From assembly GCA_000002435.2 (NCBI GenBank), contig CM018792.1: a stretch of 64,000 nucleotides of DNA; one strand, given 5' to 3'. Every line of letters starts with the position of its first letter. Within the stretch, counting starts at the first letter, position 1. This stretch comes from Giardia intestinalis (taxonomy: Eukaryota). Positions 1,413 through 49,357 of the stretch are shown piece after piece. The notes under the pieces are model-generated. The model searched no databases. It saw nothing but the letters and a program-made list of their open reading frames with translations, and was not told where the DNA came from. Both the position numbers and the translations under genes were made by a program.

Positions 1413-3548
1413 TTACACATAATTTACACAGTCGGCTACTTGGGCGCAGTCTAGGAGCATGTGGGGGTCAGGAATCCTCCTGTTCACCCAGCACTCATAC
1501 CTTCGTAAGGCGCTAGCAACTAGCTCAGGAGAAATACTGTATTCGCTGTTCAGCTTGCGAGCATCAAGGGGCTGATTCCTCCTGGAGCTAGCAGAATAAC
1601 TTCCAATAACCTTGTCGATGCAAGACTGTAAAACAGTATAAACCTCAGCAGATATGTCATTTCTCGCAGCCCCAAAGATAGAGTCAGGGATAGTGAGGAG
1701 GGGAATGCATGCGAAGTCATAGGCATGGTGCCTTTGCAAATAGTAAGAGGCTGCTAACGAATAAGGTTGCAGTAAAACTTGTCTTTCATAGAAGTCTTTG
1801 GGTCCGAAGCCCAGCCCGAGCAAGACGGAGACGACAATGAAAATGAGAACCTCGTTATATCGTGAAGCATAATAGCCCATGGTAAGCTTGATAAAAAGGT
1901 CTGACGGCGGGCTCTCGTCATCGGCCTTTGTAAGCTTAAGATACTGCGATTGAGCAAAAGGAGGCATTTGGAACCCGCTGGGACCCGCATTGGCAACATT
2001 CTGTGCAAGCGGATGCGACTTCCGATCCCTGTCCCTCTCTAGTTGGTCGTCTATGAGTTGCCGTTCAAGGGACGTAAGACACGAGATCCCAGCGTAGTGC
2101 TTCATTAATACCACGGTGAGATCATCAGAGAATTCCTTGTGAAGATTGCACTGTTCGCTCAGCCGCTCAGCGAGATGCAGGGAGTCTCCGACGGTCCCAG
2201 GACACAGATGCAGACCTGCCAGGAGACAGTCCAAAACAGTCGTACAGTACATCCTAAGTGAATGTATCTGCCCACTCATGACGCTGAGTAACAAAAGAGG
2301 ATCTATCCCCACCTCTCTGCACTGTGCACGTAGGGTCCTGACGCTTTCCTGCTGGGCACCGTCACCAGACATGGCTATTTCTCGTATAAGTTTTTCGCAG
2401 TGAGTCTGCGTATTGAGCGAGCAACCTTGAACGATTATCAGAGAGAGACTGGGAATATTCAGGAGTTTAAGAATACTTGCGACCTTCTCGTATTTGCCAG
2501 CTATAAGAAGTAGTGCTAACGAAGCATTAATATCCTGTGGAGACAATTCTTGAAAACTGCCCGTGCTAACCTGATCGGCCACCCTGATTGCATCAGCATA
2601 TTTGGTCAGTGATAATGCAGCTCCCGTAAATAATGCCTGCAGCCCATACTTTCTGGACACCACCTCCTTGGTAGAGTTCCGAAGCCCTTTCCGGGATTGT
2701 CCTGATATTTTTTTATTCCTTAGTAAGCGAGTTGATAGAGCCTCACTGTCTTCCAGCCCACCATGCTGGAGAATATCATCAATATATTCTGTCTCTGTAT
2801 ACACGTGAAGTCCCTCAAAGAGAGGAGCACTCGTTGTTTGTGAGATGACTGCTGGGTTGTTTGCGTAGAGACAGCACATCACATTGACAATGAAGTGTGC
2901 CTTGTGATTGGCACCAGCGGGTTGAATAAGGGCCAGGGCCATAAGCAAATAAAACGCCGTCTTCTCTATGTGGGGTTGTAAAGATTGGTTGGCATCCAAC
3001 TCGTGTCTAATGCCAAGGTTAGACAAAGAAAGGTAGCACAAATTAAATAAGTGGGTAGTAGGAGCACGATCTGGGACGCTCGTATCTGTGTAGGAGTAGG
3101 CACACGGCACGCTAGCCTTGTAGAATTCCCTTAACATCAGTAGATAATACGGTAGATCTGCAGCATTGTAAGGTTGCTCAGTAAGAACATTTCGCTCTCT
3201 CAAAGTTATGGATGTCATGTCACATGTATCGATGCGTTCAAGGCGTATGATAGCCTTGTCAGAGCTTGGTTGCATAGCGTTGCCATCTGATGTGAAAGCG
3301 ATTGGAGCTGCAGTGCTAAGCGTAGATAAGATAAGCGCAGAGTTAGTAACTGCACAGGAACCAATGCTACGAGTCTTAGGCAAAGCGAAGGGAAGTGAGA
3401 TGGGAAGACGTGGACACCCATCAGGAATCATGTAGACAGGCTCAGGCTGCTCCTGTTGGAGATTCTCAGCTAACCCCTCCTCAGCTGGTGAGTGCACCTG
3501 GCTGGCGCCTATCTCATATGCTGAAAGAAGGAGAGTCTTACTTAGCAT
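1413..3548 (-). CDS. hypothetical protein, 711 aa, alpha-helical, no domain recognised
   Basis: Long uninterrupted ORF. Track start 3554 is a TTG. First ATG at 3548 is preceded by an A/T-rich element (AATAGAAGGCTTTTTGTTTTCAACTTTTGGTA on the coding strand). Stop TAA at 1413-1415. Confidence 0.55.
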   Translation of the reverse strand: MLSKTLLLSAYEIGASQVHSPAEEGLAENLQQEQPEPVYMIPDGCPRLPISLPFALPKTRSIGSCAVTNSALILSTLSTAAPIAFTSDGNAMQPSSDKAIIRLERIDTCDMTSITLRERNVLTEQPYNAADLPYYLLMLREFYKASVPCAYSYTDTSVPDRAPTTHLFNLCYLSLSNLGIRHELDANQSLQPHIEKTAFYLLMALALIQPAGANHKAHFIVNVMCCLYANNPAVISQTTSAPLFEGLHVYTETEYIDDILQHGGLEDSEALSTRLLRNKKISGQSRKGLRNSTKEVVSRKYGLQALFTGAALSLTKYADAIRVADQVSTGSFQELSPQDINASLALLLIAGKYEKVASILKLLNIPSLSLIIVQGCSLNTQTHCEKLIREIAMSGDGAQQESVRTLRAQCREVGIDPLLLLSVMSGQIHSLRMYCTTVLDCLLAGLHLCPGTVGDSLHLAERLSEQCNLHKEFSDDLTVVLMKHYAGISCLTSLERQLIDDQLERDRDRKSHPLAQNVANAGPSGFQMPPFAQSQYLKLTKADDESPPSDLFIKLTMGYYASRYNEVLIFIVVSVLLGLGFGPKDFYERQVLLQPYSLAASYYLQRHHAYDFACIPLLTIPDSIFGAARNDISAEVYTVLQSCIDKVIGSYSASSRRNQPLDARKLNSEYSISPELVASALRRYECWVNRRIPDPHMLLDCAQVADCVNYV

Positions 3549-4976: not shown

Positions 4977-7574
4977 TTAGGAACACTTCTTGTGCGACAG
5001 ACCGTCCTCTGAACGGTAGATGATCGGGTACTTTTTCACAGGCCCGCCAGTAGTGTAGCCCAATGGTATTGGCAGGTAGACATCCAATAGATTATAATAA
5101 AGCAGAAGGATCCATTGATAAATGAGTAAGTGATGATCAAACATCTCAGAGTCGAAAATGAGTTCGTTGAATACTTCCGGAGGCGCAGAAAAGATCCGAA
5201 GAACAGAATAATTCTCAACGCCAAGTTCCTTTTGGCGCTTTACGAGATCTTTCAGTGTAGATATCTTATTTCCATAATTGAATGAGATCACGTACTGAAT
5301 GCCGGGGACATATGTATTAATATCTTCGTCTGGACAAGCGTAGTCCATAGTGAACGCCGTATACTCCTGCTTAAGTTCCTTGTCACTCATCTCCTTCAGT
5401 TTCTTCAGTTCTCCAGCAAATATCTTCTTGAGCTTCTGCACTGCATCAGTACTCTCATCTCTGATCTCCGGAGAAGCAACATCTGTTGACTCCGTTACGG
5501 AAAAGTTGGTAACAGCAAAGCTAGTGGCCAACTCCGAACCTGGGACCCAGACTCCCAGTTCCGATTCGGTGATGAATTCATTGTTCGGTAGTACAGATGG
5601 CTCCGATGATGGCGTTGCCGTGCTGCTTTCGGAGAAACTGGTAAAGATATCGGTAATTCGCGAGAATTCTTCTGTGCTTGATGAGTCATCTAGCTTAACT
5701 AAATTACATTCGATTAATCGCTCTGAAACAGCTTCTATAAGCTCTGTCGGGGCCTTCTCAATGAAATCGGCACCAGTGCGCAAGGAATGGCTGTCTCTGA
5801 CTGGGCAGTATTCGGAGATATCTGCAGATAGTGGGTTTGGTGTAGGCGATACTGGAACCTTGGGGTCATATGCCTTGTAAGAAGATCGAGACAGTATAGC
5901 ATCAGAAGGGTTATGTTCGACGGCTCCAATGGACAAATAATCGCCTGTAGATAGAATGTTACGTGGAAGTTTCTCTGTATTGCGATCTGTGCGGGAGCCT
6001 TTTACATGGACCGGGGTGGGTGTTGCAGACTCTGTAGCGGAAGAACCTGGGGCAGCACACTTAGACGAACCATCATTGTCACTGTCAGTGATCAGTATAG
6101 GCGGTTGATCAAGTCCAGAAACAACGCCGCATGTGACGTGTCTGCTCGTTGGTACTGCAAGGCTGATGTTTGACAAGGATGCGGACGAAGCTTTCTTTTT
6201 CTTCTTTTGGTGCCGTGCATCTGCAAATTCTTTGCGCAAATGCCGTCTCTTCGATATCTCCGAAAGTAGTCCGAGCCTCCTGAATGCGAAAAGAAAGCCT
6301 TTGGTGCTAATTCTGGGCCCGAAGTCGCTTTGCATGCAGATATTGATGAAGCCATAGCTAGATAGAAGGTCGCAGAGGGACTTACTACCACATGGCGGCG
6401 AACAAAACCCTATTACCTTTATACGTTGATATGGGATGTGATAGGACCAAAACCACCCCATCAACATGGAAACAGAACCGCCCAGCGAGTGCCCCGTTAA
6501 TGTAAGATAATAGTTAGGGTATTTTTCCAACGTATCTCGTAGTATCTTGTACGTGTCATGGTAGATGTATGCTGCTGCAGCGTAGATTCCTGCATGCCCG
6601 TAGTACTTTGTAAACTCGGTAATGGGCTTGATAAGCAAATCTTTCGATTTCAGCTTCCTCCGAAGCATTTGATATCGGTTCTTCTTCTCTTCTGTCATAC
6701 CAGGTGTGTATAGAGTCATATTATCTATGATTGGACTGTGTAGAGGTGGGTTATGAAAAGCCTTGTCCTTTCCCGACTTCATATGAGATGTTTTGGAGGC
6801 ACGTGTCTTTGTCGCCCTTTTCGTTTTTTTCAGCATCTGGGACTGTACGTACGTTCGGGGTTGAAGGCTTAATATTCCCTCAACGTTTGTTCGCTGTTGG
6901 ACGGCCGTTTCTGTGTCTATGTTGGTAACAAATTTATCGCGAGAAGATGCCTTGACCAAAAGCTCAAACTTCTCTGGCGGGGCTGTGTACTCGGTACTTA
7001 AACAAAAAATATCAGTTACCATGTCCGCCAGCGAATAGCTGCCTCTAATCGCCACAACTATCTCATACCGCCGATGGTCCAAATATATGGCTGCACATGG
7101 CATGAAATAACGTGCTTTAGTAGTGAAATAGAGGGTGTCGAGAGGCGAAACACCCATTGCTGCAGAAAATGTATTCAATTCAAATGTATTCTTTGCGCAC
7201 TTTCCATTGAGTGTGGGGCCGAACCTGCGGTTCCGGTGCTTGTAGTAGCGAGATGCCTGCTTTCTGATTCGGCTGGCGTTCAGAGTAGGAAGCTTAAAGG
7301 GATCGTGGTTCAGGGTGTACCTTGACTCATAAGAGCCGTAAACAGCGAATGCAGCACGACAATAATGTAGTAGTTCTGCTACAAAGTTAGGGTTAGTAAT
7401 AGAGGGGTAGATAGAGGAGGAGCAAAAGTTGGGATAAGGTTGCACCTTGTCACGCTTCATCTTGTTGATGAGAAAGAGCCTATTTGAGTTCGTCTCGGGG
7501 CTTATGTCTTTGAAGTGCTGAATAAGTAGCCTGACGATCCGAATAGCCTCGCCAACAGAGGTGAGGCAATCCAT
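4977..7574 (-). CDS. class-3 (fungal-type) lipase domain protein with Ser/Thr/Glu-rich C-terminal extension
   Basis: GHSLGG nucleophile-elbow motif (LTLTGHSLGGSVSMLMG). Upstream YEIVVAIRGSYSLADMVTDI is typical of the lipase_3 family. Poly-K tract (HQKKKKKASS), then about 400 aa of low-complexity acidic/Ser-rich sequence. Confidence 0.7.
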   Translation of the reverse strand: MDCLTSVGEAIRIVRLLIQHFKDISPETNSNRLFLINKMKRDKVQPYPNFCSSSIYPSITNPNFVAELLHYCRAAFAVYGSYESRYTLNHDPFKLPTLNASRIRKQASRYYKHRNRRFGPTLNGKCAKNTFELNTFSAAMGVSPLDTLYFTTKARYFMPCAAIYLDHRRYEIVVAIRGSYSLADMVTDIFCLSTEYTAPPEKFELLVKASSRDKFVTNIDTETAVQQRTNVEGILSLQPRTYVQSQMLKKTKRATKTRASKTSHMKSGKDKAFHNPPLHSPIIDNMTLYTPGMTEEKKNRYQMLRRKLKSKDLLIKPITEFTKYYGHAGIYAAAAYIYHDTYKILRDTLEKYPNYYLTLTGHSLGGSVSMLMGWFWSYHIPYQRIKVIGFCSPPCGSKSLCDLLSSYGFINICMQSDFGPRISTKGFLFAFRRLGLLSEISKRRHLRKEFADARHQKKKKKASSASLSNISLAVPTSRHVTCGVVSGLDQPPILITDSDNDGSSKCAAPGSSATESATPTPVHVKGSRTDRNTEKLPRNILSTGDYLSIGAVEHNPSDAILSRSSYKAYDPKVPVSPTPNPLSADISEYCPVRDSHSLRTGADFIEKAPTELIEAVSERLIECNLVKLDDSSSTEEFSRITDIFTSFSESSTATPSSEPSVLPNNEFITESELGVWVPGSELATSFAVTNFSVTESTDVASPEIRDESTDAVQKLKKIFAGELKKLKEMSDKELKQEYTAFTMDYACPDEDINTYVPGIQYVISFNYGNKISTLKDLVKRQKELGVENYSVLRIFSAPPEVFNELIFDSEMFDHHLLIYQWILLLYYNLLDVYLPIPLGYTTGGPVKKYPIIYRSEDGLSHKKCS

Positions 7575-7576
7575 TG

Positions 7577-9313
7577 CTAGTCTATTTTATTGGCCAAAAG
7601 ATTCTTTGAAGATACATCCTCAAAATCAGCGCCCGATACAAATGGGCACATGGTAATGTCTCCTGCATGCACAACACATAGCACCAGGATCTGCGGCGGG
7701 ACATATGCCTGGATGTCCCGTAGGTAGGGAAGTAGTTCTGAACAGGGGATTGGTGCTGGTGTTGCGATACAAAACTTCCTATTCTGAGGCGGAAGCGTCG
7801 ATATCCATAGTAAAAGTTCTCCTAGCGTTGGGGGAGATTTTGCTCCTGAGAGAGTAAAATGCTGAATAGATTTAAAACTATAGAGCGAAAGAACGCCATA
7901 TGCATATTGCGAAATGGCTTCGCTCTTCATTACTTGATACTTGTATATTAACTGGGAGAGAGAAGCCGTCGATTCTTTGAGCGTAGCTATCTGTCTTTCA
8001 CGTAACATATTGAAATACTTTTGTACAGCCTTTCCGGCCGAAGAGGAGCTTAGAGAGCGGGAGAGTATTGAGGAAATATGAATATTTGATAGCTCAAGGC
8101 GCAGGAGGACAAGATGAAGAGCGGCCTCAGCGTCCTCTATGCTACTATGCCCTGCTTCTGCATTAGTCTGTATGTCCTTTAGCAGATAACGTCGTGCTAG
8201 ATCCTGAAGGCGAGGCTTCCGGGTCCCGTGCTGGTAAAGCACACAAGTATCAATTACAAGAGGGTAGATCAATCCCAATGCTCGTAGGTCATTCTCGACC
8301 CCGTGACCAACAATGAACGGAAGAGATACACCACTCAGTGCCGACAAGTCTGTCGAGTGTTGTATCTGCTCAGCATATAGAAGTTCGTGCAGCTCGGATG
8401 GCAGAATGAAGCTCAAAATATGATCTCTTATGATATCCTTTGGGTGCTTTGAACTTGCATTTTCTAATATCTGTGCCGTGATCCCAGAATATTGTGTCTT
8501 GTAATCTACTACTTCTGTATCGCTCGGTAGCTCAACATACGCATCATAGACTAGGGAGAATATGCTCGTTACTGGAGTAGTTGTCCTCGTATTGCATTCA
8601 ACAACAGTCACTCTGGCCAAGTCATTCTCACACACTGACGTATGAATCATCTCGCAGTCAATGGCCAAAAGTACTCCGTTCCAATTATCTGCTAAGTTAT
8701 TAATAATGCACTGGGGAGGCAAGTAGAGGAATGGAGTAAATTGCTCCGACTCCAAAAGTAAATCCTTGATGCTGGTTATCCTTTGCATTCTCAAGCACAT
8801 ATCCTCTTCCAGTATGGTTTCAAAATAGTGAGTATTGGATATTTGGGTTCCGCTTGACAGCGAAACCGAGAATGGGTATTGTGCGTTCAGTATGGGAAAC
8901 ACGTCTGGCTTAGTATCATCGGTAAGCTCCAACTTTAAGAGAAGGACTCCCTTGCAGGAAAACTCGTTGTATAGTTCGAATGCCGTCTTATTTCTAGCAA
9001 GATGCCTAAAGGACACGCACCGCAAGATGGTTTCGCGCACAGCTGCGGGGCTCTTACTCTCACCTCGACCAATAGAGAACTGCGACAGCGGTCTGAGGAC
9101 ATTAGTTTCTTTGTTGTCCTCCGTTCCCTGTCTAGTGGTGGGTCCGCTAAGGCCTTGGACACGTTTGAGAAGACCCTCAAGTCGTGCACGCTTAGACTGA
9201 GAAAGCCGCGCCAAACATGCCTGCAGCTCTGCTACCTGTGCATCGGTGAGTTTTTTCTTTTCTGCGACGCGTATCAACCGTTTTGCCTGCTTGCATGCTA
9301 ACTCTGGGTTCAT
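7577..9313 (-). CDS. Rex1/REXO1-type 3'-5' RNA exonuclease (DEDDh family)
   Basis: C-terminal exonuclease domain LLAIDCEM (Asp-Glu), later VGHGVENDLRAL (His-x4-Asp), typical of REX/RNH70 exonucleases. Start placed at ATG 9313 (MNPELACK...). This ATG lies 17 nt after an AGTAAA polyA motif that follows the upstream DHHC gene stop. Track start 9469 would overlap that gene by 136 nt. Confidence 0.65.
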   Translation of the reverse strand: MNPELACKQAKRLIRVAEKKKLTDAQVAELQACLARLSQSKRARLEGLLKRVQGLSGPTTRQGTEDNKETNVLRPLSQFSIGRGESKSPAAVRETILRCVSFRHLARNKTAFELYNEFSCKGVLLLKLELTDDTKPDVFPILNAQYPFSVSLSSGTQISNTHYFETILEEDMCLRMQRITSIKDLLLESEQFTPFLYLPPQCIINNLADNWNGVLLAIDCEMIHTSVCENDLARVTVVECNTRTTTPVTSIFSLVYDAYVELPSDTEVVDYKTQYSGITAQILENASSKHPKDIIRDHILSFILPSELHELLYAEQIQHSTDLSALSGVSLPFIVGHGVENDLRALGLIYPLVIDTCVLYQHGTRKPRLQDLARRYLLKDIQTNAEAGHSSIEDAEAALHLVLLRLELSNIHISSILSRSLSSSSAGKAVQKYFNMLRERQIATLKESTASLSQLIYKYQVMKSEAISQYAYGVLSLYSFKSIQHFTLSGAKSPPTLGELLLWISTLPPQNRKFCIATPAPIPCSELLPYLRDIQAYVPPQILVLCVVHAGDITMCPFVSGADFEDVSSKNLLANKID

Positions 9314-9326
9314 AATGTAGCAGCAA

Positions 9327-9332
9327 TTTACT
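9327..9332 (-). promoter_or_regulatory. AGTAAA polyadenylation-type motif 1 nt after the DHHC gene stop
   Basis: Minus strand reads TAA A AGTAAA TTGCTGCTACATT ATG. Giardia-type AGTRAAY signal. Confidence 0.4.
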
Positions 9333-9333
9333 T

Positions 9334-10305
9334 TTATAATTGGCTTGTTCCGCAGAGAACTATGGTCCATGCCCAGGCCTGTTGTTCTGCCTGGTCCGGT
9401 GAAAGATAGTAAAGGACGGGCATGTGGCTTCCAAATATAAGCCGACGGAGCCCCGTATGTTTCAGCCATTTCATCCTATCTTTAATAGAACTGTTTATGT
9501 CCTCTACAAGATTGCTGAGAAATTGATCTGCATCCGCAGACTTACTACCATTTATCCCCTTTCCAGACTGTTGATTACGAAGAGTATACAGTCTAGGAGA
9601 TTTGTCTCGGAAAACGTCGTAAAGAGTCCAGCCGCACATGCCTCCAGTGAACGCCCCTCCAAAGAAGGAGCCCAGAAGGCAAGCACCAGCGATAGCCAGC
9701 TCATTAATATTGTTGGCGTGAACCAGGGCGAGAATAGCCAGAGAAAAACACCATACAGAATGGATGCAGAGAACCAACAAAGACACAACGAAAGGCAGCA
9801 TGTTTCGGAGACCGATAGGCAGCCCGACCCACGGACAATAATGATCCAAGGCAACAATGCATTCATCTGTTTCTTCACAATGGTCAGTTTCTGGAGGGAG
9901 CGTTAGGTTGCAGACAGCGCATGTAGATGTCTCAAACACAATTCCAGCGGCTTGGAAAATCACTCCTGTCCGTGCACGCATGGGCGCTTCCGTGCCACTC
10001 TCTGCCTCATCTGACCGGCAGCCACGAGGAAGTCGGCCCGGATCGATAAAAATCAGGCGAAGCCATAGTAGAATCGACAGACCATATGTGAGACTGGTTA
10101 TAGTGTAGCTTATCCACGGGTGTATTGCTCGGGACGTTACTGGGAGGACGTATGCGAACTCTGCCATTGAAAACCCTGTAATTAGCAGTCCAGACAGAAG
10201 CGTACGTCGTAGAGCACGCGGTGATATTGTAACTGCGGGCGGGCCGGGTCGATTGTCACAAAAGGCCCCTCTCTCACGAAGCATTTTACTACCATTCTTT
10301 AACAT
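9334..10305 (-). CDS. DHHC-type zinc-finger palmitoyltransferase with non-canonical DHYC active site
   Basis: Cys-rich domain CAVCNLTLPPETDHCEETDECIVALDHYCPWVGLPIGLRNM fits C-x2-C-x9-HC-x2-C-x4-DHHC-x5-C, with variations DHC and DHYC. Flanked by 4 predicted TM helices. Confidence 0.65.
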   Translation of the reverse strand: MLKNGSKMLRERGAFCDNRPGPPAVTISPRALRRTLLSGLLITGFSMAEFAYVLPVTSRAIHPWISYTITSLTYGLSILLWLRLIFIDPGRLPRGCRSDEAESGTEAPMRARTGVIFQAAGIVFETSTCAVCNLTLPPETDHCEETDECIVALDHYCPWVGLPIGLRNMLPFVVSLLVLCIHSVWCFSLAILALVHANNINELAIAGACLLGSFFGGAFTGGMCGWTLYDVFRDKSPRLYTLRNQQSGKGINGSKSADADQFLSNLVEDINSSIKDRMKWLKHTGLRRLIFGSHMPVLYYLSPDQAEQQAWAWTIVLCGTSQL

Positions 10306-10330: not shown

Positions 10331-10816
10331 TTAGAGCCTATCTGGAACCAAGGTAAGTGTTCCGTCCTTTGAAATGCAATAGTGCCGATTCTTAAATCTA
10401 GGTTCGCAATGAACTTGCTGTACATTAGGAACTACGCAGCATTCTCTAAGGTCCTTAGCGGAAACATTTTGACGGAGAAAGGCTTGCGAGTATGAGCGTA
10501 TGGCTCTTACCGAAGCCGGACGAGCTGCATAGGGAATAGCCTCTATTTCAGCCAGCAAACACTCTTCAAGATCTTCCAGAAGACGTATGGCCGTAATTCT
10601 ATGGCCCCTTCGCAGTTCACTTGTAAGCCTTTGCACATCATAGTCCTTGATATCAGCTGGTTTCAGGCTGCCGCTGAGTGCACCATTGTCAGTGAGAACA
10701 GTTGTCGGCAAGCTCAGCACATCCTTTTCCGTCTTTGCTAGTCGGCATATCCGTGCAATCAAGCGTACATGCCCCTGGTCCGCATAGATCTCGTCGTAGA
10801 AGTGAGAACCAAACAT
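10331..10816 (-). CDS. hypothetical protein, 161 aa
   Basis: ORF with ATG at 10816 (track start 10819 is TTG). ATG preceded by GAATTAAAGTCTTTTG. No domain recognised. Confidence 0.45.
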   Translation of the reverse strand: MFGSHFYDEIYADQGHVRLIARICRLAKTEKDVLSLPTTVLTDNGALSGSLKPADIKDYDVQRLTSELRRGHRITAIRLLEDLEECLLAEIEAIPYAARPASVRAIRSYSQAFLRQNVSAKDLRECCVVPNVQQVHCEPRFKNRHYCISKDGTLTLVPDRL

Positions 10817-23907: not shown

Positions 23908-24162
23908 ATGCAGACAGACAACGTCCAGGTCCTCGGAGGCGAGCAGATGCAGGACATAGAGGCAGATGACATTCGAATGAAGGTAGCACCAGTGAACGAG
24001 GCACGCCAAGCGCAGCTACCCAACATCCAGATGGCATCTGAGCAGTTGCAGACGTCGATTGGCAAGGTATCAATAGCATATCTTTCTAAGTTTGTGGTCC
24101 CCTACGCAGACGCATATGAAAAGATGCAACCGTGGACGTCCAAAGACATCGCTCTTATGTGA
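23908..24162 (+). CDS. small hypothetical protein, 84 aa
   Basis: First ATG of the track ORF (which starts at a GTG at 23875). ATG preceded by A/T-rich aaaagatattttacgtgaaaattgcagacataagcaaagg. No domain recognised. Confidence 0.3.
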   Translation: MQTDNVQVLGGEQMQDIEADDIRMKVAPVNEARQAQLPNIQMASEQLQTSIGKVSIAYLSKFVVPYADAYEKMQPWTSKDIALM

Positions 24163-24226: not shown

Positions 24227-25336
24227 ATGGAGACGCTATCATTGGGAATGCACTGGTCACACACCAGCTATGCAGATGATTGCTTTCTGGGCACCATTGA
24301 TGAATCTCTGTTAAGTCCTAAACCTGCACTACATCAACCACTGTATGCGCTGCAGGGACAAGAGGATAGTGATCAGCTTCTGGGTGTCCGCAACTCAAGC
24401 GCTTCCCACAGAATAGCAGATGGGCCGATTGCACAAACTCACAAAAAAATGTCACAGCATCGGCTGCTGCTCTTCCTCCGCTTTCTGGATAGCTTTGTAA
24501 GCGACTTTGTTAGCCAGGCAAATAAGATCGCAGACTATCACAACAACTTGATCTTTCGCAGAATTCGAAAGGACCTCTTTCTATCCCTTAGAGAACACTT
24601 TAACTATCGAATGGCCCCCAACCCATATTCTAGTGACATTGTGTTCACCGCCTTTTTCCTTTTTAACGTGCTCGTGCAGTCAGTTCAAAAGCAAAATTGG
24701 AACCCCATTACGCTTCCAGACCACCTTACCGAGATTTTTAGCCAGCGAGACTCAATGAAAAGACTCATTGTGCTGTGTGTGAAACAGTATCATGAGGTCG
24801 GCCGAACACCCAAAAGTAAGCAGCTGGGTGTGCCCCCGAATCGCTATTACCGTTGTCTGCAACCCTTCTTTAAGAATGATACCTTTATCGTTTCACTTGT
24901 TCATACAATTCAAGATCGCATAACCATGGCCATTCAGACTGTTACACGATACATTGAGCAACGTAAGGCACAGTTCAGCGAGCAGAAACGTGCTACTAGT
25001 CGGCGTGTAGTCAGGAAGGTTTCCAAAGAAAATACTAGAACATCTAGAGACATGTCCAACACAGCAAAGGCTGGAGAGACTGATGCGCCCCCTAGTGTGT
25101 CCAAAAATGTGCGTAGTACTGATGTTCATTCCACAAGTGTTGGCGAGTTTACTCCCTCGGGAACCCAGGAGCTTTCAGAAACCTCCACAAGAATCGAAGA
25201 AGGTTCGTATCCGTTCAACGCATCTCAGGACCAAGTGGATCAGTGGCTAACTGACTATCTTCAGCACACAAATAGCGGGTTCTACGTTGGAGAAGACTTC
25301 AATCTGGATGACCCCTGCTTCCTGCCTATCAATTAA
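24227..25336 (+). CDS. hypothetical protein, 369 aa
   Basis: Track ORF starts at TTG 24092 and overlaps the preceding small ORF. ATG 24227 (METLSLGMHW...) directly follows GAGAATAATTAAA. No domain recognised. Confidence 0.5.
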   Translation: METLSLGMHWSHTSYADDCFLGTIDESLLSPKPALHQPLYALQGQEDSDQLLGVRNSSASHRIADGPIAQTHKKMSQHRLLLFLRFLDSFVSDFVSQANKIADYHNNLIFRRIRKDLFLSLREHFNYRMAPNPYSSDIVFTAFFLFNVLVQSVQKQNWNPITLPDHLTEIFSQRDSMKRLIVLCVKQYHEVGRTPKSKQLGVPPNRYYRCLQPFFKNDTFIVSLVHTIQDRITMAIQTVTRYIEQRKAQFSEQKRATSRRVVRKVSKENTRTSRDMSNTAKAGETDAPPSVSKNVRSTDVHSTSVGEFTPSGTQELSETSTRIEEGSYPFNASQDQVDQWLTDYLQHTNSGFYVGEDFNLDDPCFLPIN

Positions 25337-25345
25337 AATTCTTTG

Positions 25346-27499
25346 ATGAATCCCGAGATCTTGGAGGTCTTGGGAGGCTCAAAGGGGAAGCGTTCGTCAC
25401 TTCCAGGGCTTCGTCGCGGCAAGGCGGTTGGTGCAGCGACATCCGTTCCCGTGTGGCCCATCGTTTTTGTCTCTCCTCAATTTATTGATCAGGCGCCGTC
25501 CACTATTTGCCGACTCAACTTTTACGCAAAAAAGGACCTACCGCAGCGATATGATCACATTGTCGAACTGAGAGGCGCGCCTATTGCATCTGGAACGTAC
25601 GACGTGCCGGAGACCTCTCCCTATCTTGAAGACTTCTCCAGCGCAACCCGGATAGATGTAGCTGAATATTTATCACTAGGATCTGTATGCCCCTTAGATG
25701 AGGTTACAGTAACTGGTCTTGGCGGTTGCTCAGGGATGCGGAACAGGCTAATTGCGCGTCTCCACCAACTACTAAATGGGGCGATTATCACTCCGCGGAC
25801 AAGGCTTATCATTCGTATTGCTGGACACACCTACCACATTGCGTTTACTTTTCCGCCTGGTGTAGATGTCGAGGACGTCTGCCTCTATGCTATCACCTCA
25901 ACCACAACTCTATTCACAGATGCACTCTCTATACAACGGCACACAATAGGTCCACAGGGGGCTGAGTCAGACGCTGCTACTTCATATTTCCGTACAGCAC
26001 CACCAAAGGTTCACGAGGTGTTTTCTTTGATCAGAGCTCGCCTCAGTAATCCTCGCTCATTAGGAATCGTCAGTGCCTTGCTCTATGGCCTCCCTGGGAA
26101 TGGCAAATCCATGTTTGCAAATGCAGCTGTTTCTCGGCTGAACCATCTAGCCATTCGCACAAACCTCGTTACTCTCGATTTGGCCACGGCCGTTGAGTAC
26201 CTAGATACGCACGTGCTTTCCTCGCAATTAGATCGGCCTTCGTACCCGGCAGTACTTCTATTCATTGATGAAATTGATAGCGAACAAGCAGAGCATGCTT
26301 TTACAAACTTCCACACACGAATAAAGCTTCTTCGGGAAGGTCCTTACCGCATTTTTATCCTCGCTGCAACCAATAGGTTGGCAAGCCTCCCGTTGAGTGT
26401 CGTTACATGTTCATTTTCTCTATCTGTTGAGTTTCGCGCACCTGAGTATGCACAGCGGTTGGAACTTCTCAGAAGCAATTATTTGTCTATTGCAGATATG
26501 CTACACAAGCAATGGGCGTTGGAAACGGTTGAGGATAATGCGGATCCACCTCCTTGCTTAGACACGGGACCTACGTCCATCGAAGTTCTGGCTGAGCGGT
26601 TCGAAGGCCTCTCCTACGCCGACATAGCCTTTATTTTTGTCCAACTGCGTCACCACATTTTATCCGATAAGGCTACCAATCTTAGCGTGAGTGAGATCCA
26701 GGATAAACTAATTCAACTCGCTGGTGCCGCAAGGCCGTCGTCCCTCCTTTCCTTTGACATTGTACAGATTCACGAAGCACAGATTGGTGGGCTTGACGAC
26801 GAACTGGATGCTATCAGAAAGATGATGTCTTCCCCCTTCACAAACTCCTTACTGATCTATGGTGAACCTGGCTGCGGAAAGTCTCAGATCGGTAGATACC
26901 TTTCCTCCGTTCTCCACTATCCGCTGCTCTCGATTGCTAGCACACAGTTAATCGGCAGCTATGTAGGAGAGACAGAGAAGGCAATCGAGCGTGTTTTTCG
27001 AATAGCACGGGCTTCTCAACCCGTGATCATCTTCTGGGATGAGATAGATGCCGTCTTTCCGACGAACTCTTTTTATAAGTACATGGATCGCGCAATCACC
27101 ACCTTCTCCAGTTGCATTGATGATATCGTAGGAACTAAGGTCTTTTTAATTGCGGCTACTAATAAGCCCGCATCTATCCACAGTGACGCTCTTTCTCGAT
27201 TCTCCCACAAGTTCGAGATTACACGGCCAGCTACACGCGATCAGGCGCTTTCAATCTTTACTGCCTGCTTGGGAGGACTGCCACTGACGTCTGAACTGAG
27301 AGAAACCCTACCTCTATATGCGGAAAAGATGATAGGCTTTACAGGAGCCGAGATAGCTGCGGTCGTCAATCTAGCATCCCTTAATGCTATTGCTCGTTGT
27401 GTAGATGCGCAGCAGCGCCACTTTGATGACCCTGCGGAGGCAGAGACACTATCAGCGGCGGACTTCCTGGCAGCGTTAAACATAAAGGCCGTTCACTGA
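25346..27499 (+). CDS. type-II AAA+ ATPase with two AAA domains (NVL/AFG2/Pex1-6-like; subfamily unresolved)
   Basis: Two Walker A motifs (LYGLPGNGKS and IYGEPGCGKS). Two Walker B motifs (LLFIDEID and IIFWDEIDAV). Typical C-terminal AAA helices (TGAEIAAVVNLASLNAIAR). Start is ATG 25346, only 9 nt after the upstream stop. Confidence 0.75.
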   Translation: MNPEILEVLGGSKGKRSSLPGLRRGKAVGAATSVPVWPIVFVSPQFIDQAPSTICRLNFYAKKDLPQRYDHIVELRGAPIASGTYDVPETSPYLEDFSSATRIDVAEYLSLGSVCPLDEVTVTGLGGCSGMRNRLIARLHQLLNGAIITPRTRLIIRIAGHTYHIAFTFPPGVDVEDVCLYAITSTTTLFTDALSIQRHTIGPQGAESDAATSYFRTAPPKVHEVFSLIRARLSNPRSLGIVSALLYGLPGNGKSMFANAAVSRLNHLAIRTNLVTLDLATAVEYLDTHVLSSQLDRPSYPAVLLFIDEIDSEQAEHAFTNFHTRIKLLREGPYRIFILAATNRLASLPLSVVTCSFSLSVEFRAPEYAQRLELLRSNYLSIADMLHKQWALETVEDNADPPPCLDTGPTSIEVLAERFEGLSYADIAFIFVQLRHHILSDKATNLSVSEIQDKLIQLAGAARPSSLLSFDIVQIHEAQIGGLDDELDAIRKMMSSPFTNSLLIYGEPGCGKSQIGRYLSSVLHYPLLSIASTQLIGSYVGETEKAIERVFRIARASQPVIIFWDEIDAVFPTNSFYKYMDRAITTFSSCIDDIVGTKVFLIAATNKPASIHSDALSRFSHKFEITRPATRDQALSIFTACLGGLPLTSELRETLPLYAEKMIGFTGAEIAAVVNLASLNAIARCVDAQQRHFDDPAEAETLSAADFLAALNIKAVH
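27491..27497 (-). promoter_or_regulatory. AGTGAAC polyA-type motif (AGTRAAY) 16-22 nt after the dynein stop, overlapping the stop codon of the convergent AAA gene
   Basis: Plus strand gttcacTGA. Minus strand AGTGAAC. Confidence 0.3.
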
Positions 27500-27512
27500 G
27501 GCTCGTTCAGAG

Positions 27513-30500
27513 CTAATCACCAAGATTAAGGAGTATTGCTGTTCCACGCTTGACCCATTTTGCAGGCTTATCATAGCCACTGTGGAGCCAGATATTGATA
27601 ACGAACGATGGCTGCTCACGTGATCCTGTGCGAACAGGATAGTAGTAGCACGGGCATTCATAGAATACCTGCTGGAACTTCGCCGTTTTCTTCTTCGCCT
27701 CTTGGGGCTTGAACCGGATTATTGGGAGCGTTAGATAGAGATCCATCAGGCGAGGCTCTTTTAAGTAGCCTACGTCTAAGTCCCAGTTTGCGCCCTCAAG
27801 ATAGAAGTCATGGGCATAGAACCCATCTCCAAAAGCAGGCACGCTTCTATCGTCGATGTCGCGAAGAGGGTCAAGGTACCTCGTGACTTGGAAGCCCCAT
27901 TCGAGTTGATCGATAGCTATGTTCATTCTACGTGATGCCTGCTGCTGCAACGCGGTTAGGAAGGCGGTGGGCAAACTCAGTCCACCAAGCCAGTAACTCT
28001 TTAGTGAGCCGACGTTCGCCCACTTCTGTAGTTGCTCCACCCGCTTGATGAAATCGCGTGACCATGGCGCTAGAGACTTCGTGCTCTTGTAAATGATCCC
28101 CCAGGATGCAGGAACCTTACCGACTTGCAAGTCGTTGAGCACCTCATCAAGATACGCCGACATCATCGTCAGCCCCCTGATACCTCTTTGGAGAGTCGTG
28201 AGGTCGTCACTGATAATGTTCCTGAGCCGCATGTGGCGTTCAGATTCCTGTAGCAGGACTGCCTTCAGCGGTGCAGTTTGATCATTGATGTCTGTTATTG
28301 GGGGAGGGAGGTTGGTTATTGGGGCCGGCAGACTGTGAATGATGTCCTGGGCTAGCTTGATCATACGCTCGTCTCTCGCTGACAAACCAGTGCTTTCTTT
28401 CTTCTTTTTCTTGGTTCCATCCTCGTCGCCGTCGCCGTCGTCTGCTACCTTTTTGGCCTTCTTCTCTTTCTCCTTCTTCTTATCATCCACTTCGCCAGAA
28501 GAGCTGCCGTCGATGGACTGAATCGTTAGCAAAGTCTCGACAAGGGTTAGAGACTCCACCTTCCGAGAAGCGACCTCTGAGTTACTATGTTGCCCGAAAA
28601 CAGCGGGAAGATCAACCTGGGGTAACGTGGTGATATAGTCTCGATACTCCTGCAGGCTTCCTCGTTGCGGAATGACATACTCTGAAAGCGGGGGCGCGAG
28701 CAGATATCCGTCTCGCTTGATTGCAGTCTGGCAAAACACATGGTCTATGTAGACGTTGAGAACGCGCCTATCGAGATCGTCTATGACTCGCCCTCCATAG
28801 ATAATGGAAGCGACAAGGTACTTCAAGGCGTTCCACGGAATAGTATCATACAGCTGGAGATACATGGACAAAACCTCGACAGCAGTCTCGTAATCGGATT
28901 GCGTGAACTGGTATTGGATGTTATATCCTAAACTGCCAAACTTACGACGTTCGACGAGGAGCGTGTGGTAGAACGAGATGCCGAAAAGCAGCTTCCTATA
29001 GGCGTCATCCTTCTCGTCGGGTGTCATGGAAAACATGTTTTCTTGCTCCTCTTGAGGCACATGGTACGAGTCACGGACTTGTAGTCGTTCGAGAATCGGC
29101 TTATCAATGTACGTATATAGTTGTTGAAGATTGGCACGGACACCAGAGGGCGCCTCTGTCGTGATCTTTATGCTAGTCTGAAGGACACTTATAGGGAATA
29201 CGTTGGTGGGGTCTGATGAAATCCAAAGCCTGAAGTCTTTGTGCGGCGCTGAATGGGGTATATCTTCCACTAGCTGCTCCAGGACGGAGAAGAAACTCGG
29301 AGTTAGGTGCACATTGGCAAGTAACACCCAACGGCCCTCTTTCATGGACCGCTGGACGGCCTTCACTGCAACCTCTTGCTGGCCTTGGCCCAAAGAGATC
29401 TGATCAAGTTTATCTGCGCGGCCGCATGACTTGGCAAACGCCAAGAGCTGAGAGGTGGGATCAGCGCCTTGGGAAAGGATAAATAACAGAGGAATCTGGG
29501 GGGAAGAATCTGTCAATGCCAATCCCAAGTCAAATGGCGGTGGATTAGTGTATTGAGCCCCGATACTGTTTGCAACAAAAGTATAGATCGCGTTGATAAG
29601 GCGATCAGGTCTGAAGCAGCGCAGCACAAGCATCTTCTGGAGCTCGTTTAGCTGAGTGTCCCATTCGCCAACAAGAGGCGCCTTTTCAGGCGTATCGTGG
29701 ACGTAGTAGTTAGTGTACCAGTCTTTCAGGCGCTGCTCAATGCTGGGAAGAAGGTTGCTGAAGGCAGGCATCTTATCAAGAATACAAAGGCTGTCCCACA
29801 TTGCGCCGCTAATCCAAGTGGGATCGGGGTTCGGCGGCTGCTGAGACTTGTCGAACACCTGGCCGCCCTTGAGCAGAAAGGCATACTCACTCATATTTAT
29901 CCTGCCATAACTTTCCAGGATCTTCACGCACATATGCAGAGACAAGAGAATCTTGTGCCGAGTAAACAGACCACGGCAGCAGTACTTATAAACCGCGTAA
30001 GTGTGGTAGTCGTTGAGGAGTCTAATTCGGGCGCTAACGTCCTCATGCTTCTGGCTGTTATTGATGCTGTTAATAAAGAGCTTCATGTATGCCTCCAAGC
30101 TAAATTGGTACATAGGATCTACTGAGCCCAGATCTTCGAGAACAAAGTACAGCAGCGATGCCCTCTCGCTGACAGGCTGATAAGCCCGCCGTGCCATATC
30201 AATCTTTTTCTCAGTGATCGCAGAGGTTTCAAGCTGCTTTGTAATCTCTGCAGACGTGACTTTGGAATTTTCAAGAGTGGCAATAAGCTCCTCGTCGTCG
30301 AGAAGACTGCCAGACGATGTAGCCAGGAGACGCAATATCTCATCTTCCAGAAACTGCAACTTCACCCGCATATTGGCTGTGTTGAGAACGATCTTATTTT
30401 TAGATTCCTCTAAATCTGGGCGTTCCTTTGAAACGACTGCTCCCAGCAGCTGGTCTGTTAGACCCTCCTTGATAATCGTGAAGTTGATGATACAGGCCTT

Positions 30501-48701: not shown

Positions 48702-49349
48702 TCATAGAACAGCACATAGTCTGCAGTTTGTCTTCTTGGCTTCTTTGAGAAACATTTTGGACGCTGCAGACAGGTCATCGGACTTCTTCATGACCTCATC
48801 AAGACTCCTCCCACGCTCAACAATCTTCTCTAGATTTGCATACGCCATGTCTCGCACTTCATCGATATCTTTGGCCAGCTTAGAAAGCTGATCGTTCTCT
48901 TCTGGCCTCTGAGCTCTCTTTAAAAGAGGAACTAAGTCTACAAGACCACCATCCTCTTTTGGCCCTACAGCATCTTTGGAGACATTGAGCTTGTTGGGCG
49001 GTAAATTCATCGCTAGAGAAAGCATCTCCTTAAGGTAATGGTTTGCGAAGCGGATGGCATACGAAGTATTGGCTACTAGGATTGCAGTTGTACCGCTTGA
49101 ATTCTTAAGTCCATAGACGCAGTACGCAAAGTCATTGTTTGCTGACGCCTTTATCATGTTCCCAGGCTGCAGAGCAAGGGCGACGGACCGAGCTGAGAAA
49201 CGCATGATCTCTTTGGCAGATCCCCGGGTCACCAAAGAGAGAGACGAGACGTCGTGTGCGGCTGCAACTATGGCAACGGTTTTCTCCTCCCCATTGACAG
49301 GAGGCAGGTCCTGGATCAGGGCCACGTACATGACCGGAGAAGAGGTCAT
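48702..49349 (-). CDS. YKT6: Ykt6-like longin R-SNARE (no TM, C-terminal CaaX-like CAVL)
   Basis: Longin domain VMYVALIQD...KTVAIVAAAHDVSSLSLVTRGSAKEIMRFSAR matches Ykt6 (lyalsilyk..kvvllkaayDVSSFSFFqRssvqEFMtFtsq). R-SNARE motif DEVRDMAYANLEKIVERGRSLDEVMKKSDDLSAASKMFLKEAKK. Ends NCRLCAVL. Start set at second ATG 49349. Track start 49367 would overlap the Rpt4 ATG. Confidence 0.7.
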   Translation of the reverse strand: MTSSPVMYVALIQDLPPVNGEEKTVAIVAAAHDVSSLSLVTRGSAKEIMRFSARSVALALQPGNMIKASANNDFAYCVYGLKNSSGTTAILVANTSYAIRFANHYLKEMLSLAMNLPPNKLNVSKDAVGPKEDGGLVDLVPLLKRAQRPEENDQLSKLAKDIDEVRDMAYANLEKIVERGRSLDEVMKKSDDLSAASKMFLKEAKKTNCRLCAVL

Positions 49350-49357
49350 TTTTAAAA
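49350..49357. promoter_or_regulatory. 8-bp palindromic spacer TTTTAAAA between the divergent Ykt6 and Rpt4 start codons (minimal bidirectional initiator candidate)
   Basis: ggtCAT TTTTAAAA ATGccc. Minus ATG at 49347-49349. Plus ATG at 49358-49360. Confidence 0.35.

What the first reader, a model, noticed from the sequence alone, without database searches (positions are those of the whole stretch)
7572..7579. Tandem same-strand genes separated by only 2 nt (exonuclease stop to lipase start)
On the minus strand the exonuclease ORF ends TAG at 7577-7579. The lipase ORF begins ATG at 7572-7574 (TAG CA ATG). A similar 9-nt gap separates the 369-aa hypothetical gene and the AAA gene (25337-25345). 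With no room for a promoter or polyA signal, three models remain. The downstream gene is transcribed from a promoter inside the upstream coding region, the pair is co-transcribed, or the downstream gene starts at a later ATG.
Basis: seen in the sequence. Interest (0 to 1): 0.5.

Follow-up and report, generated by a model that had tools for sequence, protein, structure and literature searches.

The report
Giardia promoter inside neighbouring gene's end
Two Giardia genes really do sit 2 bases apart, and the most likely reason is ordinary for this very compact parasite genome: the downstream lipase gene's short A/T-rich start signal lies inside the last codons of the upstream exonuclease gene.

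Summary
The window is Giardia intestinalis WB. The second junction is also exact: TAA 25334-25336, a 9-nt gap, ATG 25346.

Lipase residues 1-38 are conserved as far as G. muris, and variable sites in codons 2-38 fall 4/1/28 by codon position.

The embedded-promoter model is best supported. Matches to the published Giardia transcription-start consensus lie 14 nt (CCAATAAAATA) and 11 nt (CAATTAAAATT, containing the TAA stop) before the two ATGs.

The last 14 exonuclease codons evolve like a DNA signal, not like protein (4/3/4). In two divergent lineages the same sequence is a non-coding 39-44-nt spacer.

Co-transcription cannot be excluded as a by-product. It is unlikely to be how lipase is made, because Giardia translation is cap-dependent and uses the first AUG.

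No canonical AGTRAA poly(A) signal follows the exonuclease stop, so its mRNA probably ends inside the lipase gene.

None of this is unusual for Giardia: median spacer is 81 bp, and tandem gaps in this window have a median of 22 nt. Interest is low. No transcript data could be consulted.

The parts
7577..9313 (-). RNA exonuclease (DEDDh, RNase_T) CDS, 578-aa model; the longer 630-aa ORF runs to 9469
   Evidence: Pfam PF00929. Identical to XP_001708376.2 (578 aa) and .1 (630 aa). The N-terminus MNPE(L/F)ACK is shared by the G. intestinalis lineages.
7580..7621 (-). Last 14 codons of the exonuclease (EDVSSKNLLANKID), read here as the translated core-promoter region of the lipase gene
   Evidence: Variable sites by codon position are 4/3/4 here, against 86/50/265 in the 450 codons upstream. 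Ten of 14 third positions are invariant, against 185/450 upstream (Fisher p=0.03). The homologous sequence is a non-coding spacer in L004/L005, and the G. muris protein ends before it.
7583..7593 (-). A/T-rich initiator-like element CCAATAAAATA; predicted transcription start at A7588, giving a 14-nt leader with no AUG before 7574
   Evidence: Matches the TSS-seq consensus variants AAAATAAAAT(G) (PMC3792122 Table 3). PWM score 4.3, within the top 5% of control windows. CAATAAAA is conserved in assemblages A, E and B, with TTTAAAAAA in L004/L005. Leader sequence checked.
7586..7591 (-). AATAAA hexamer inside the initiator-like element; possible minor-type poly(A) signal for the exonuclease
   Evidence: AAUAAA is used by about 5% of Giardia genes, with cleavage typically 13-15 nt from the first A (PMC9014877). 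That would place cleavage at 7578-7576. Its function is inferred only.
7577..7579 (-). Exonuclease stop codon TAG
   Evidence: A TAR at -5 to -3 of the lipase ATG is present in all 7 lineages, including the two where it is not the exonuclease stop.
7575..7576 (-). 2-nt spacer (CA)
4977..7574 (-). Class-3 lipase (sn-1 diacylglycerol lipase-like) CDS, 865 aa, starting at the first ATG (7574-7572)
   Evidence: Pfam PF01764. Identical to XP_001708377.1. M1 D2 L4 T5 S6 are invariant to G. muris. Variable sites in codons 2-38 fall 4/1/28 by codon position.
24227..25336 (+). Giardia-specific hypothetical protein CDS (369-aa model; the ORF's first ATG is at 24116)
   Evidence: ATG 24227 is preceded by gagaataattaaa.
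25330..25340 (+). Initiator-like element CAATTAAAATT that contains the upstream TAA stop (25334-25336); predicted start at A25335, giving an 11-nt leader
   Evidence: PWM score 11.5, within the top 0.4% of control windows. GCCTATCAATTAAA is invariant in four lineages, including third codon positions.
25346..27499 (+). AAA+ ATPase (annotated CDC48) CDS, 717 aa
   Evidence: Pfam PF00004 and PF17862. Identical to XP_001708360.1.
9327..9332 (-). Canonical AGTAAA poly(A) signal of the DHHC gene, one base after its stop, inside the 20-nt spacer before the exonuclease ATG 9313. Included as a comparison junction in the same gene run.

Best explanation
The window is Giardia intestinalis WB. Each gene of the pair is probably transcribed on its own.

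The lipase core promoter is the short A/T-rich initiator typical of Giardia, CCAATAAAATA at 7593-7583. It lies within the last codons of the exonuclease ORF. RNA polymerase II is predicted to start at about A7588. That would give a capped mRNA with a 14-nt leader whose first AUG is the lipase start at 7574.

The same design holds at the second junction. There the initiator CAATTAAAATT contains the upstream TAA stop and predicts an 11-nt leader.

The exonuclease mRNA has no canonical AGTRAA signal. Its 3' end is therefore expected to form at a weak or non-canonical site at or beyond its stop, so its 3' UTR overlaps the lipase 5' coding region.

In evolutionary terms, the 2-nt gap in assemblages A, E and B arose because the exonuclease lost its earlier stop. 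It now reads through the former 39-44-nt promoter spacer until the conserved TAR at -5 of the lipase ATG. In G. muris a 2-nt gap exists without that tail, so it arose separately.

Shown here: the anatomy, the conservation and the codon-position patterns. Inferred: the transcription start, separate transcription of the two genes and the exonuclease 3' end.
For: - Identity of the window and genes.
- The first ATG is used. Residues 1-38 are conserved to G. muris. Codons 2-38 vary 4/1/28 by codon position, like codons 40-76 at 6/3/33.
- Initiator-like elements sit at -14 and -11. They match the published TSS consensus and score in the top 5% and top 0.4% of control windows. Gene starts in this window are enriched for such elements: 8/33 score >=6, against 3% of controls.
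- The element is conserved whether coded or not.
- The exonuclease tail shows no third-position excess (4/3/4, against 86/50/265 upstream) and has excess invariant third positions (p=0.03).
- The tail is absent from L004, L005 and G. muris proteins.
- At junction 2, 14 consecutive bases are invariant around the stop.
- Published Giardia biology fits. A whole promoter fits in a 30-bp tandem spacer with a 3-nt leader (PMC1885649). 31.5% of TSS regions lie within 40 nt of start codons (PMC3792122). Translation is cap-dependent with first-AUG choice and 0-12-nt leaders.
- Median 3' UTR is 59-80 nt against a median spacer of 81 bp, and 31% of poly(A) clusters lie in sense inside ORFs.
- Gap lengths of 2, 39 and 44 nt keep no constant frame relation, so a fusion protein is excluded.
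- No RNA family hit and no unusual RNA structure at the junction.
Against: - No transcript data for these genes could be consulted. The start at 7588 is a prediction.
- The lipase initiator match is only moderate (score 4.3, about the 95th percentile). An element upstream of the internal Met39 scores similarly (5.0), so the motif score alone does not discriminate between the two ATGs.
- The codon-position test on the tail rests on 14 codons and three lineages (p=0.03-0.05).
- The PWM was built from only the 17 most frequent published variants.
- There is no AGTRAA on this strand from the exonuclease stop through the whole lipase gene, in any of the seven lineages. Long read-through exonuclease-lipase transcripts are therefore possible.
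Confidence: 0.75

Rival explanations
1. The pair is one transcription unit. A bicistronic exonuclease-lipase mRNA is made, and lipase is translated from it by termination-reinitiation across the 2-nt gap or by internal entry.
For: No canonical AGTRAA poly(A) signal lies between the exonuclease stop and the end of the lipase gene in any lineage. The stop and start are 2 nt apart in five of seven lineages. G. muris has many 1-to-few-nt overlaps such as ATGA. Franzen et al. considered read-through from upstream ORFs as one source of sense poly(A) sites inside ORFs.
Against: Giardia initiation is cap/eIF4E-dependent and follows the first-AUG rule with 0-12-nt leaders. The lipase AUG would lie more than 1.7 kb from the cap, after a 578-codon ORF. 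The 39- and 44-nt gaps in L004/L005 break any tight stop-start coupling, yet the lipase start region is unchanged. An initiator-like element sits in the usual position. RNA structure at the junction is not unusual (z = -0.9). AGTRAA absence over 2.6 kb is expected by chance about 28% of the time (my estimate from base frequencies), and the motif is depleted in ORFs anyway.
Confidence: 0.05
2. The lipase really starts at a downstream in-frame ATG (Met39, 7460-7458), and the first 38 codons are 5' leader or spacer.
For: An A-rich element (AACTCAAATAG) about 26 nt before Met39 scores 5.0 with the initiator matrix, as high as the element before Met1. Start codons are often mis-set in Giardia annotations. 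For example, the neighbouring exonuclease was revised from 630 to 578 aa.
Against: Residues 1-38 align without gaps in all seven lineages, with M1, D2, L4, T5, S6, A10, R12, F21, K22, E27, T28, N31, R32 and L33 invariant to G. muris. Variable sites in codons 2-38 fall 4/1/28 by codon position, the signature of purifying selection on this reading frame. In G. muris the sequence before Met39 is not A/T-rich. A 114-nt leader would be atypical for Giardia.
Confidence: 0.04
3. The conserved A/T-rich block is dual-purpose. It is the lipase initiator and, through its AATAAA, also the poly(A) signal of the exonuclease. This would give an exonuclease mRNA cleaved at or within its own stop codon, with an essentially zero-length 3' UTR. 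This adds to the best explanation rather than replacing it.
For: AATAAA lies at 7591-7586. The usual 13-15-nt signal-to-cleavage distance puts cleavage at 7578-7576, at TAG/CA. AATAAA is present within 15 nt of the lipase ATG in five of seven lineages, and overlaps the stop in both G. muris-type sequences (gaAATAAAg). Elsewhere in the window AGTAAA signals sit inside the A/T-rich patch just before the next ATG, at 9332, at +38 after the stop of 53267-54805, and at the stop of 60640-62082. Dual use of stop codons as poly(A) signals is documented in diplomonads.
Against: AAUAAA accounts for only about 5% of Giardia sites. L004/L005 lack the hexamer. The A-richness is fully explained by initiator function. 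About 47% of Giardia poly(A) sites have no recognisable signal, so none is required.
Confidence: 0.15

Closest known systems
Giardia lamblia core promoter: A/T-rich initiator at the transcription start, a few to about 20 nt before the ATG, with very short tandem spacers (Holberton & Marshall 1995; Yee et al. 2000; Elmendorf et al. 2001; Teodorovic et al. 2007, PMC1885649; Tolba et al. 2013, PMC3792122)
   Same: The element has the same sequence type (AAAATAAAAT / AAATTAAAAT variants). It is in the same position relative to the ATG, with predicted leaders of 11-14 nt. It sits in the same head-to-tail context; a 30-bp spacer has been shown to hold a complete promoter.
   Different: Here the element is not in a spacer. 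It is translated as the C-terminal tail of the upstream protein (junction 1) or contains the upstream stop codon (junction 2). No paper in the searched library describes this explicitly for Giardia, although it follows from the known gene density.
Overlapping transcription in compacted eukaryotic genomes: microsporidia and nucleomorphs (Williams et al. 2005 PNAS; Corradi et al. 2008; Peyretaillade et al. 2009).
   Same: Extreme gene density forces start and end signals into neighbouring genes. Transcripts of adjacent same-strand genes overlap. The shared signals may help keep gene pairs adjacent.
   Different: In microsporidia, multi-gene transcripts were shown experimentally. Here the overlap is only inferred. 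Giardia signals differ: an A/T-rich initiator and AGURAA.
Dual-use stop codon/poly(A) signals in diplomonads: AG-UAA-A / AG-UGA-A (Bilodeau et al. 2022, PMC9014877; Xu et al. 2014, 2020)
   Same: It follows the same economy principle, with one short A-rich sequence serving two gene-expression steps at a gene boundary.
   Different: Neither junction has the AG-URA-A arrangement; they read GAC-TAG-CA and AAT-TAA-AA. The dual use proposed here is between a stop codon or C-terminal codons and the next gene's initiator.
Kinetoplastid or nematode polycistronic units resolved by trans-splicing
   Same: Same-strand genes with minimal spacing.
   Different: Giardia mRNAs are individually capped with very short leaders. 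No spliced-leader system is known, and each downstream gene here has its own initiator-like element.

Membership tests
Giardia A/T-rich initiator (core promoter) upstream of lipase and of the AAA ATPase gene | 11-nt A/T-rich consensus centred on an A, as found at TSS-seq peaks | tested here: met
   CCAATAAAATA scores 4.3 (top 5% of control windows). CAATTAAAATT scores 11.5 (top 0.4%). The matrix was built from PMC3792122 Table 3. The lipase match is moderate.
Giardia A/T-rich initiator (core promoter) upstream of lipase and of the AAA ATPase gene | Located so that the leader is about 0-20 nt and the first AUG is the start codon | tested here: met
   Predicted leaders are 14 and 11 nt, and there is no AUG in AAAATAGACTAGCA. 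Published leader range.
Giardia A/T-rich initiator (core promoter) upstream of lipase and of the AAA ATPase gene | Transcripts actually start inside the element | not testable with these tools
Per-gene tables are not in the held supplements.
Giardia A/T-rich initiator (core promoter) upstream of lipase and of the AAA ATPase gene | Second A/T-rich (TATA-like) patch about 30 bp upstream | tested here: inconclusive
   aaagaatctttt lies 20-32 nt before the lipase ATG. It was not scored, and no accepted matrix exists.
Giardia A/T-rich initiator (core promoter) upstream of lipase and of the AAA ATPase gene | Conserved as a DNA element independent of coding | tested here: met
   It is conserved in lineages where it is non-coding. 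Codon-position pattern is 4/3/4 against 86/50/265. A 14-nt block is invariant at junction 2.
Polycistronic (operon-like) transcription unit | Downstream gene lacks its own start signal | tested here: not met
   Initiator-like elements are present at both junctions.
Polycistronic (operon-like) transcription unit | Bicistronic RNA exists and is the template for the downstream protein | not testable with these tools
   No transcript data. Argued against from cap-dependent first-AUG initiation.
Polycistronic (operon-like) transcription unit | Tight stop-start spacing conserved, as needed for coupling | tested here: not met
   Gaps are 2, 2, 2, 39, 44, 2 and 2 nt.
Mis-annotated start codon | Region between the first and the true ATG shows no protein-level constraint | tested here: not met
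   Variable sites fall 4/1/28 by codon position in codons 2-38. Fourteen residues are invariant to G. muris.
Dual stop codon/poly(A) signal (AG-URA-A) | AG immediately before a UAA/UGA stop, followed by A | tested here: not met
   The junctions read GAC TAG CA and AAT TAA AA.
Read-through or frameshift fusion protein | Constant frame relation between the two ORFs across lineages | tested here: not met
   Gap lengths modulo 3 are 2, 0 and 2.

The most novel reading that the evidence does not exclude
The A/T-rich block at the junction may be a bifunctional boundary element. It would start lipase transcription and also, as AAUAAA, direct cleavage of the exonuclease mRNA at its own stop codon. That would give a 3' UTR of zero length, or a stop completed by the poly(A) tail. 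Alternatively the exonuclease has no terminator of its own and is made as a transcript that shares its 3' end with the lipase mRNA, as in herpesvirus-type nested transcripts. Either would mean that some Giardia gene pairs share one boundary signal, and this could explain why the pair stays adjacent from G. intestinalis to G. muris while the flanking genes differ.
Probability: 0.12. Interest if true: 0.45.

Novelty: already known. Interest (0 to 1): 0.15.

Why it matters
The main value is for annotation. The first ATG of the lipase and the 2-nt gap are correct, and no exotic expression mechanism is needed.

The junction also shows how genome compaction proceeds. A stop-codon loss lets an upstream ORF absorb the neighbour's promoter, so 14 codons are constrained as DNA signal rather than as protein.

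Such junctions were deliberately left out of the published 3'-end maps, which discarded poly(A) sites overlapping the next gene (PMC9014877). How upstream genes in these pairs end their mRNAs is therefore a small, answerable gap.

Tried and rejected
- **Direct transcript evidence.** I looked in the supplements of PMC3792122, PMC9014877, PMC3610916 and PMC8700996. The stored tables are cut or keyed by GL50803 numbers. I could not obtain the locus tags for XP_001708376/7, so nothing was retrieved.
- **Literature on long-read or polycistronic Giardia transcripts**, and on promoters inside upstream ORFs, returned nothing relevant.
- **The initiator matrix** could not separate Met1 from Met39 of the lipase (4.3 against 5.0). 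The start-codon question was settled by conservation instead.
- **Canonical poly(A) signal search.** None was found downstream of the exonuclease stop in any lineage. This is uninformative alone, because it is expected by chance about 28% of the time and about 40-47% of sites lack the motif.
- **Rfam scan** of the whole window gave 0 hits. **RNA folding** of the junction was not unusual (z = -0.9). There is no evidence for an IRES or a reinitiation structure.
- **Fusion by frameshift or read-through** was rejected because the frame relation is not conserved.
- **The bacterial promoter/terminator scanner** was not used because it does not apply to Giardia.

Full report
**What the window is.** The ORFs are long, intron-free and densely packed on both strands at about 49% G+C. 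Pfam finds eukaryotic domains: DHHC palmitoyltransferase, class-3 lipase, RNase_T exonuclease, AAA ATPase and a 5577-aa dynein heavy chain. Exact look-ups identify the lipase (4977-7574, minus) as XP_001708377.1 and the AAA protein (25346-27499) as XP_001708360.1. The exonuclease (7577-9469) is XP_001708376.1, since revised to a 578-aa model. All belong to Giardia intestinalis WB, ATCC 50803.

**The observation.** It is exact. The minus strand reads ...CCAATAAAATAGAC TAG CA ATG GAT TGC..., with TAG at 7579-7577, CA at 7576-7575 and ATG at 7574-7572. The second junction reads ...CCTATCAAT TAA aattctttg ATG AAT..., with a 9-nt spacer at 25337-25345. The '369 aa' model of the upstream gene starts at ATG 24227, which is itself preceded by gagaataattaaa.

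**How unusual it is.** It is not unusual for this organism. Taking first-ATG ORFs of at least 120 aa, and correcting the exonuclease start, gives 10 head-to-tail pairs in the window. Their gaps are about -8, 2, 9, 20, 20, 25, 29, 39, 49 and 117 nt. Published values are a median intergenic distance of 81 bp in G. intestinalis and 37 bp in G. muris. In G. muris 9.5% of genes overlap a neighbour (PMC7641422).

**Is the first ATG the real lipase start?** Yes. A protein search found orthologues in six other Giardia lineages:
- assemblage E (P15);
- assemblage B (the cluster includes GS protein GL50581_3648);
- two more divergent unnamed lineages from runs ERR3333383 and ERR3333379, which I suspect are dog assemblages C/D (not verified);
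- G. muris;
- a G. muris-like lineage.

All align from residue 1 without gaps, and M1, D2, L4, T5, S6, A10, R12, F21, K22, E27, T28, N31, R32 and L33 are invariant. Among the five G. intestinalis-complex lineages, variable sites in codons 2-38 fall 4/1/28 by codon position. This matches codons 40-76 (6/3/33). WB against P15 shows 6 synonymous and 0 replacement codon differences there. The segment is therefore translated in this frame, and the 'later ATG' model is rejected.

**The junction in other lineages.** I fetched the orthologous loci.
- The exonuclease-lipase pair is adjacent and on the same strand in all of them.
- The G. muris upstream gene is a true orthologue (36% identity, E = 2e-84), even though the next gene upstream differs: an ankyrin protein instead of DHHC.
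- The gap is 2 nt in A, E, B, G. muris and the muris-like lineage, and 39 and 44 nt in L004 and L005.
- In the DNA alignment, TAR-NN-ATG is invariant in all seven. An A/T-rich block lies immediately 5' of it: CAATAAAA in A/E/B, TTTAAAAAA in L004/L005 and AGAAATAAA in G. muris.

The exonuclease protein alignment explains the gap differences. The conserved protein ends at ...ITMCPFVSG(A/T)N in L004/L005, and the G. muris protein ends at the aligned position. A, E and B carry 14 further residues (EDVSSKNLLANKID in WB). These are encoded by sequence homologous to the L004/L005 spacer.

The 2-nt gap of WB therefore arises because the ORF runs through the former spacer to the conserved TAR. With G. 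muris as outgroup this reads most simply as a stop-codon loss, which is an inference. The G. muris 2-nt gap arose separately.

**That tail behaves as a DNA signal, not as protein.** Among A, E and B its 14 codons show variable sites 4/3/4 by codon position. The 450 codons upstream show 86/50/265, and every 14-codon block before the tail has a third-position excess. Ten of 14 third positions are invariant, against 185/450 upstream (Fisher p = 0.03). The third-position share of changes differs with p = 0.054. The sample is small, but it agrees with the conservation seen in lineages where the sequence is non-coding.

**What the signal is.** Tolba et al. mapped Giardia transcription starts genome-wide. 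They found an 11-nt A/T-rich consensus centred on the initiating A, with frequent variants such as AAAATAAAATG and AAATTAAAATG (PMC3792122). I built a weight matrix from their 17 listed variants.
- CCAATAAAATA (7593-7583) scores 4.3. About 5% of random 32-nt search windows or internal in-frame ATGs reach this.
- CAATTAAAATT (25330-25340) scores 11.5, reached by about 0.4%.
- Predicted starts are A7588 (14-nt leader) and A25335, the middle base of the TAA stop (11-nt leader).
- Gene starts in the window are enriched for such elements: 8/33 score >=6, against 3% of controls.
- The score alone does not discriminate Met1 from Met39 of the lipase (5.0), which is why the conservation evidence matters.

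At junction 2 the block GCCTATCAATTAAA is invariant in four lineages, including third positions, and the gap is 8-9 nt.

**Fit with published promoter work.** Giardia promoters need only an initiator-like A/T patch at the start site and a second patch about 30 bp upstream. A 30-bp tandem spacer was shown by 5' RACE to hold a working promoter giving a 3-nt leader (PMC1885649). In TSS-seq, 31.5% of start regions lie within 40 nt of a start codon.

**Co-transcription.** It cannot be excluded as a by-product. The only AGTRAA on the minus strand between 9600 and 4800 is the DHHC gene's signal at 9332. None of the seven lineages has AGTRAA between the exonuclease stop and the lipase stop. This is weak evidence, for four reasons:
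- absence over 2.6 kb is expected about 28% of the time (my estimate);
- AGUAAA is depleted in ORFs;
- only 60% of validated sites carry AGURAA;
- 47% of poly(A) sites, and 85% of those lying in sense inside ORFs, have no recognisable signal.

Median 3' UTRs of 59-80 nt against a median spacer of 81 bp mean that upstream transcripts commonly end inside the next gene. Franzen et al. found 31% of poly(A) clusters in sense inside ORFs and named upstream read-through as one explanation. The same window shows this directly. The AGTAAA after ORF 10331-10816 lies 15 nt inside the first-ATG model of the DHHC ORF. The AGTAAA after 53267-54805 sits 6 nt before the next ATG.

As a route to lipase protein, a bicistronic RNA is unlikely. 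Giardia initiation is cap/eIF4E-dependent, follows the first-AUG rule and uses 0-12-nt leaders (Li & Wang 2004, as summarised in PMC4949329). The 39-44-nt gaps in two lineages break any coupling. The junction RNA has no unusual structure (z = -0.9) and there are no Rfam hits. A fusion protein is excluded by the inconsistent frame relation (gaps 2, 39 and 44).

**One open point.** The A/T block contains AATAAA (7591-7586). AAUAAA is a minor Giardia poly(A) signal, used by about 5% of genes, with cleavage usually 13-15 nt from its first A. That would fall on TAG/CA. AATAAA also overlaps the stop in both G. muris-type sequences. The block might therefore serve both genes. I rate this at about 0.15, and it needs 3'-end data. 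Bilodeau et al. discarded poly(A) sites that overlapped the following gene, so published maps would not show it.

**Verdict.** The arrangement is the normal compact Giardia gene boundary, with the downstream initiator inside or against the upstream ORF's end. The genes and starts are already annotated this way in RefSeq. The only modestly new detail is that the WB exonuclease tail is a translated promoter spacer. Interest is low.

Noticed in passing
window 9313-9469 (minus): The 630-aa exonuclease ORF overlaps the 3' end of the DHHC gene (9334-10305). The 578-aa model starting at ATG 9313 removes the overlap. Its start MNPE(L/F)ACK is shared by the G. intestinalis lineages. The 20-nt spacer reads TAA-a-AGTAAA-ttgctgctacatt-ATG. 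The DHHC poly(A) signal and the likely exonuclease initiator are therefore the same A/T patch, and the expected cleavage site (about 9319-9317) lies just before the next ATG.
   Followed up: partly
window 10285-10290 (minus), inside the DHHC ORF 9334-10305: The only AGTAAA after the stop of ORF 10331-10816 lies in codons 6-7 of the first-ATG DHHC model (ATG TTA AAG AAT GGT AGT AAA ATG). The next ATG (codon 8) is directly preceded by tAGTAAAATG, which resembles the start-site consensus. The DHHC gene may therefore start at Met8. Gene callers disagree on its length: 277, 323 and 327 aa in different loci.
   Followed up: no
window 27492-27515: The convergent AAA ATPase (stop 27497-27499) and dynein heavy chain (stop 27513-27515) are 13 nt apart. 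The dynein AGTGAA poly(A) signal (27497-27492, minus) lies antisense within the last codons of the AAA gene, so the two 3' UTRs must overlap. This fits the 81% of tail-to-tail pairs reported to overlap (PMC3610916).
   Followed up: no
window 49358-49367: The divergent genes 48702-49367 (minus) and 49358-50563 (plus) overlap by 10 nt at their 5' ends if first ATGs are used. The plus gene has a near-perfect initiator (TTTTTAAAAAT, score 12.5). The minus gene's first ATG has none (score -5.1), so its start is probably further in.
   Followed up: no
window 1413-1420 (minus): The SurE-like gene (191-1420) and the upstream 711-aa gene (1413-3548) overlap by 8 nt (aattATGTGTAAg) if the first ATG is used. 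The P15 annotation uses a later start, with a 47-nt gap in L002.
   Followed up: no
L001:6286-6289 and L006:5348-5358: In G. muris the lipase stop overlaps the start of the next same-strand gene (ATGA, 4 nt). In the muris-like lineage the overlap is 11 nt. In G. intestinalis the gene downstream of the lipase is instead a convergent ankyrin gene, so only the exonuclease-lipase adjacency is shared between the species.
   Followed up: partly
L004, L005, L011, L012 (runs ERR3333379/82/83) and L006 (SRR30592944): Logan assemblies hold Giardia lineages with no named protein in the collection. Two are more divergent from WB than assemblage B (lipase 75-79% identical). One is a G. muris-like lineage distinct from the reference strain.
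   Followed up: no
window about 5400-6200 (minus), lipase residues about 455-720: The central Ser/Thr/Pro-rich third of the lipase is poorly conserved among assemblages and is largely deleted in G. muris. The N-terminal region, the GHSLGG catalytic core and the C-terminal 130 residues are conserved.
   Followed up: no
window 1-64000: No Rfam family reaches its gathering score anywhere in the 64 kb.
   Followed up: yes
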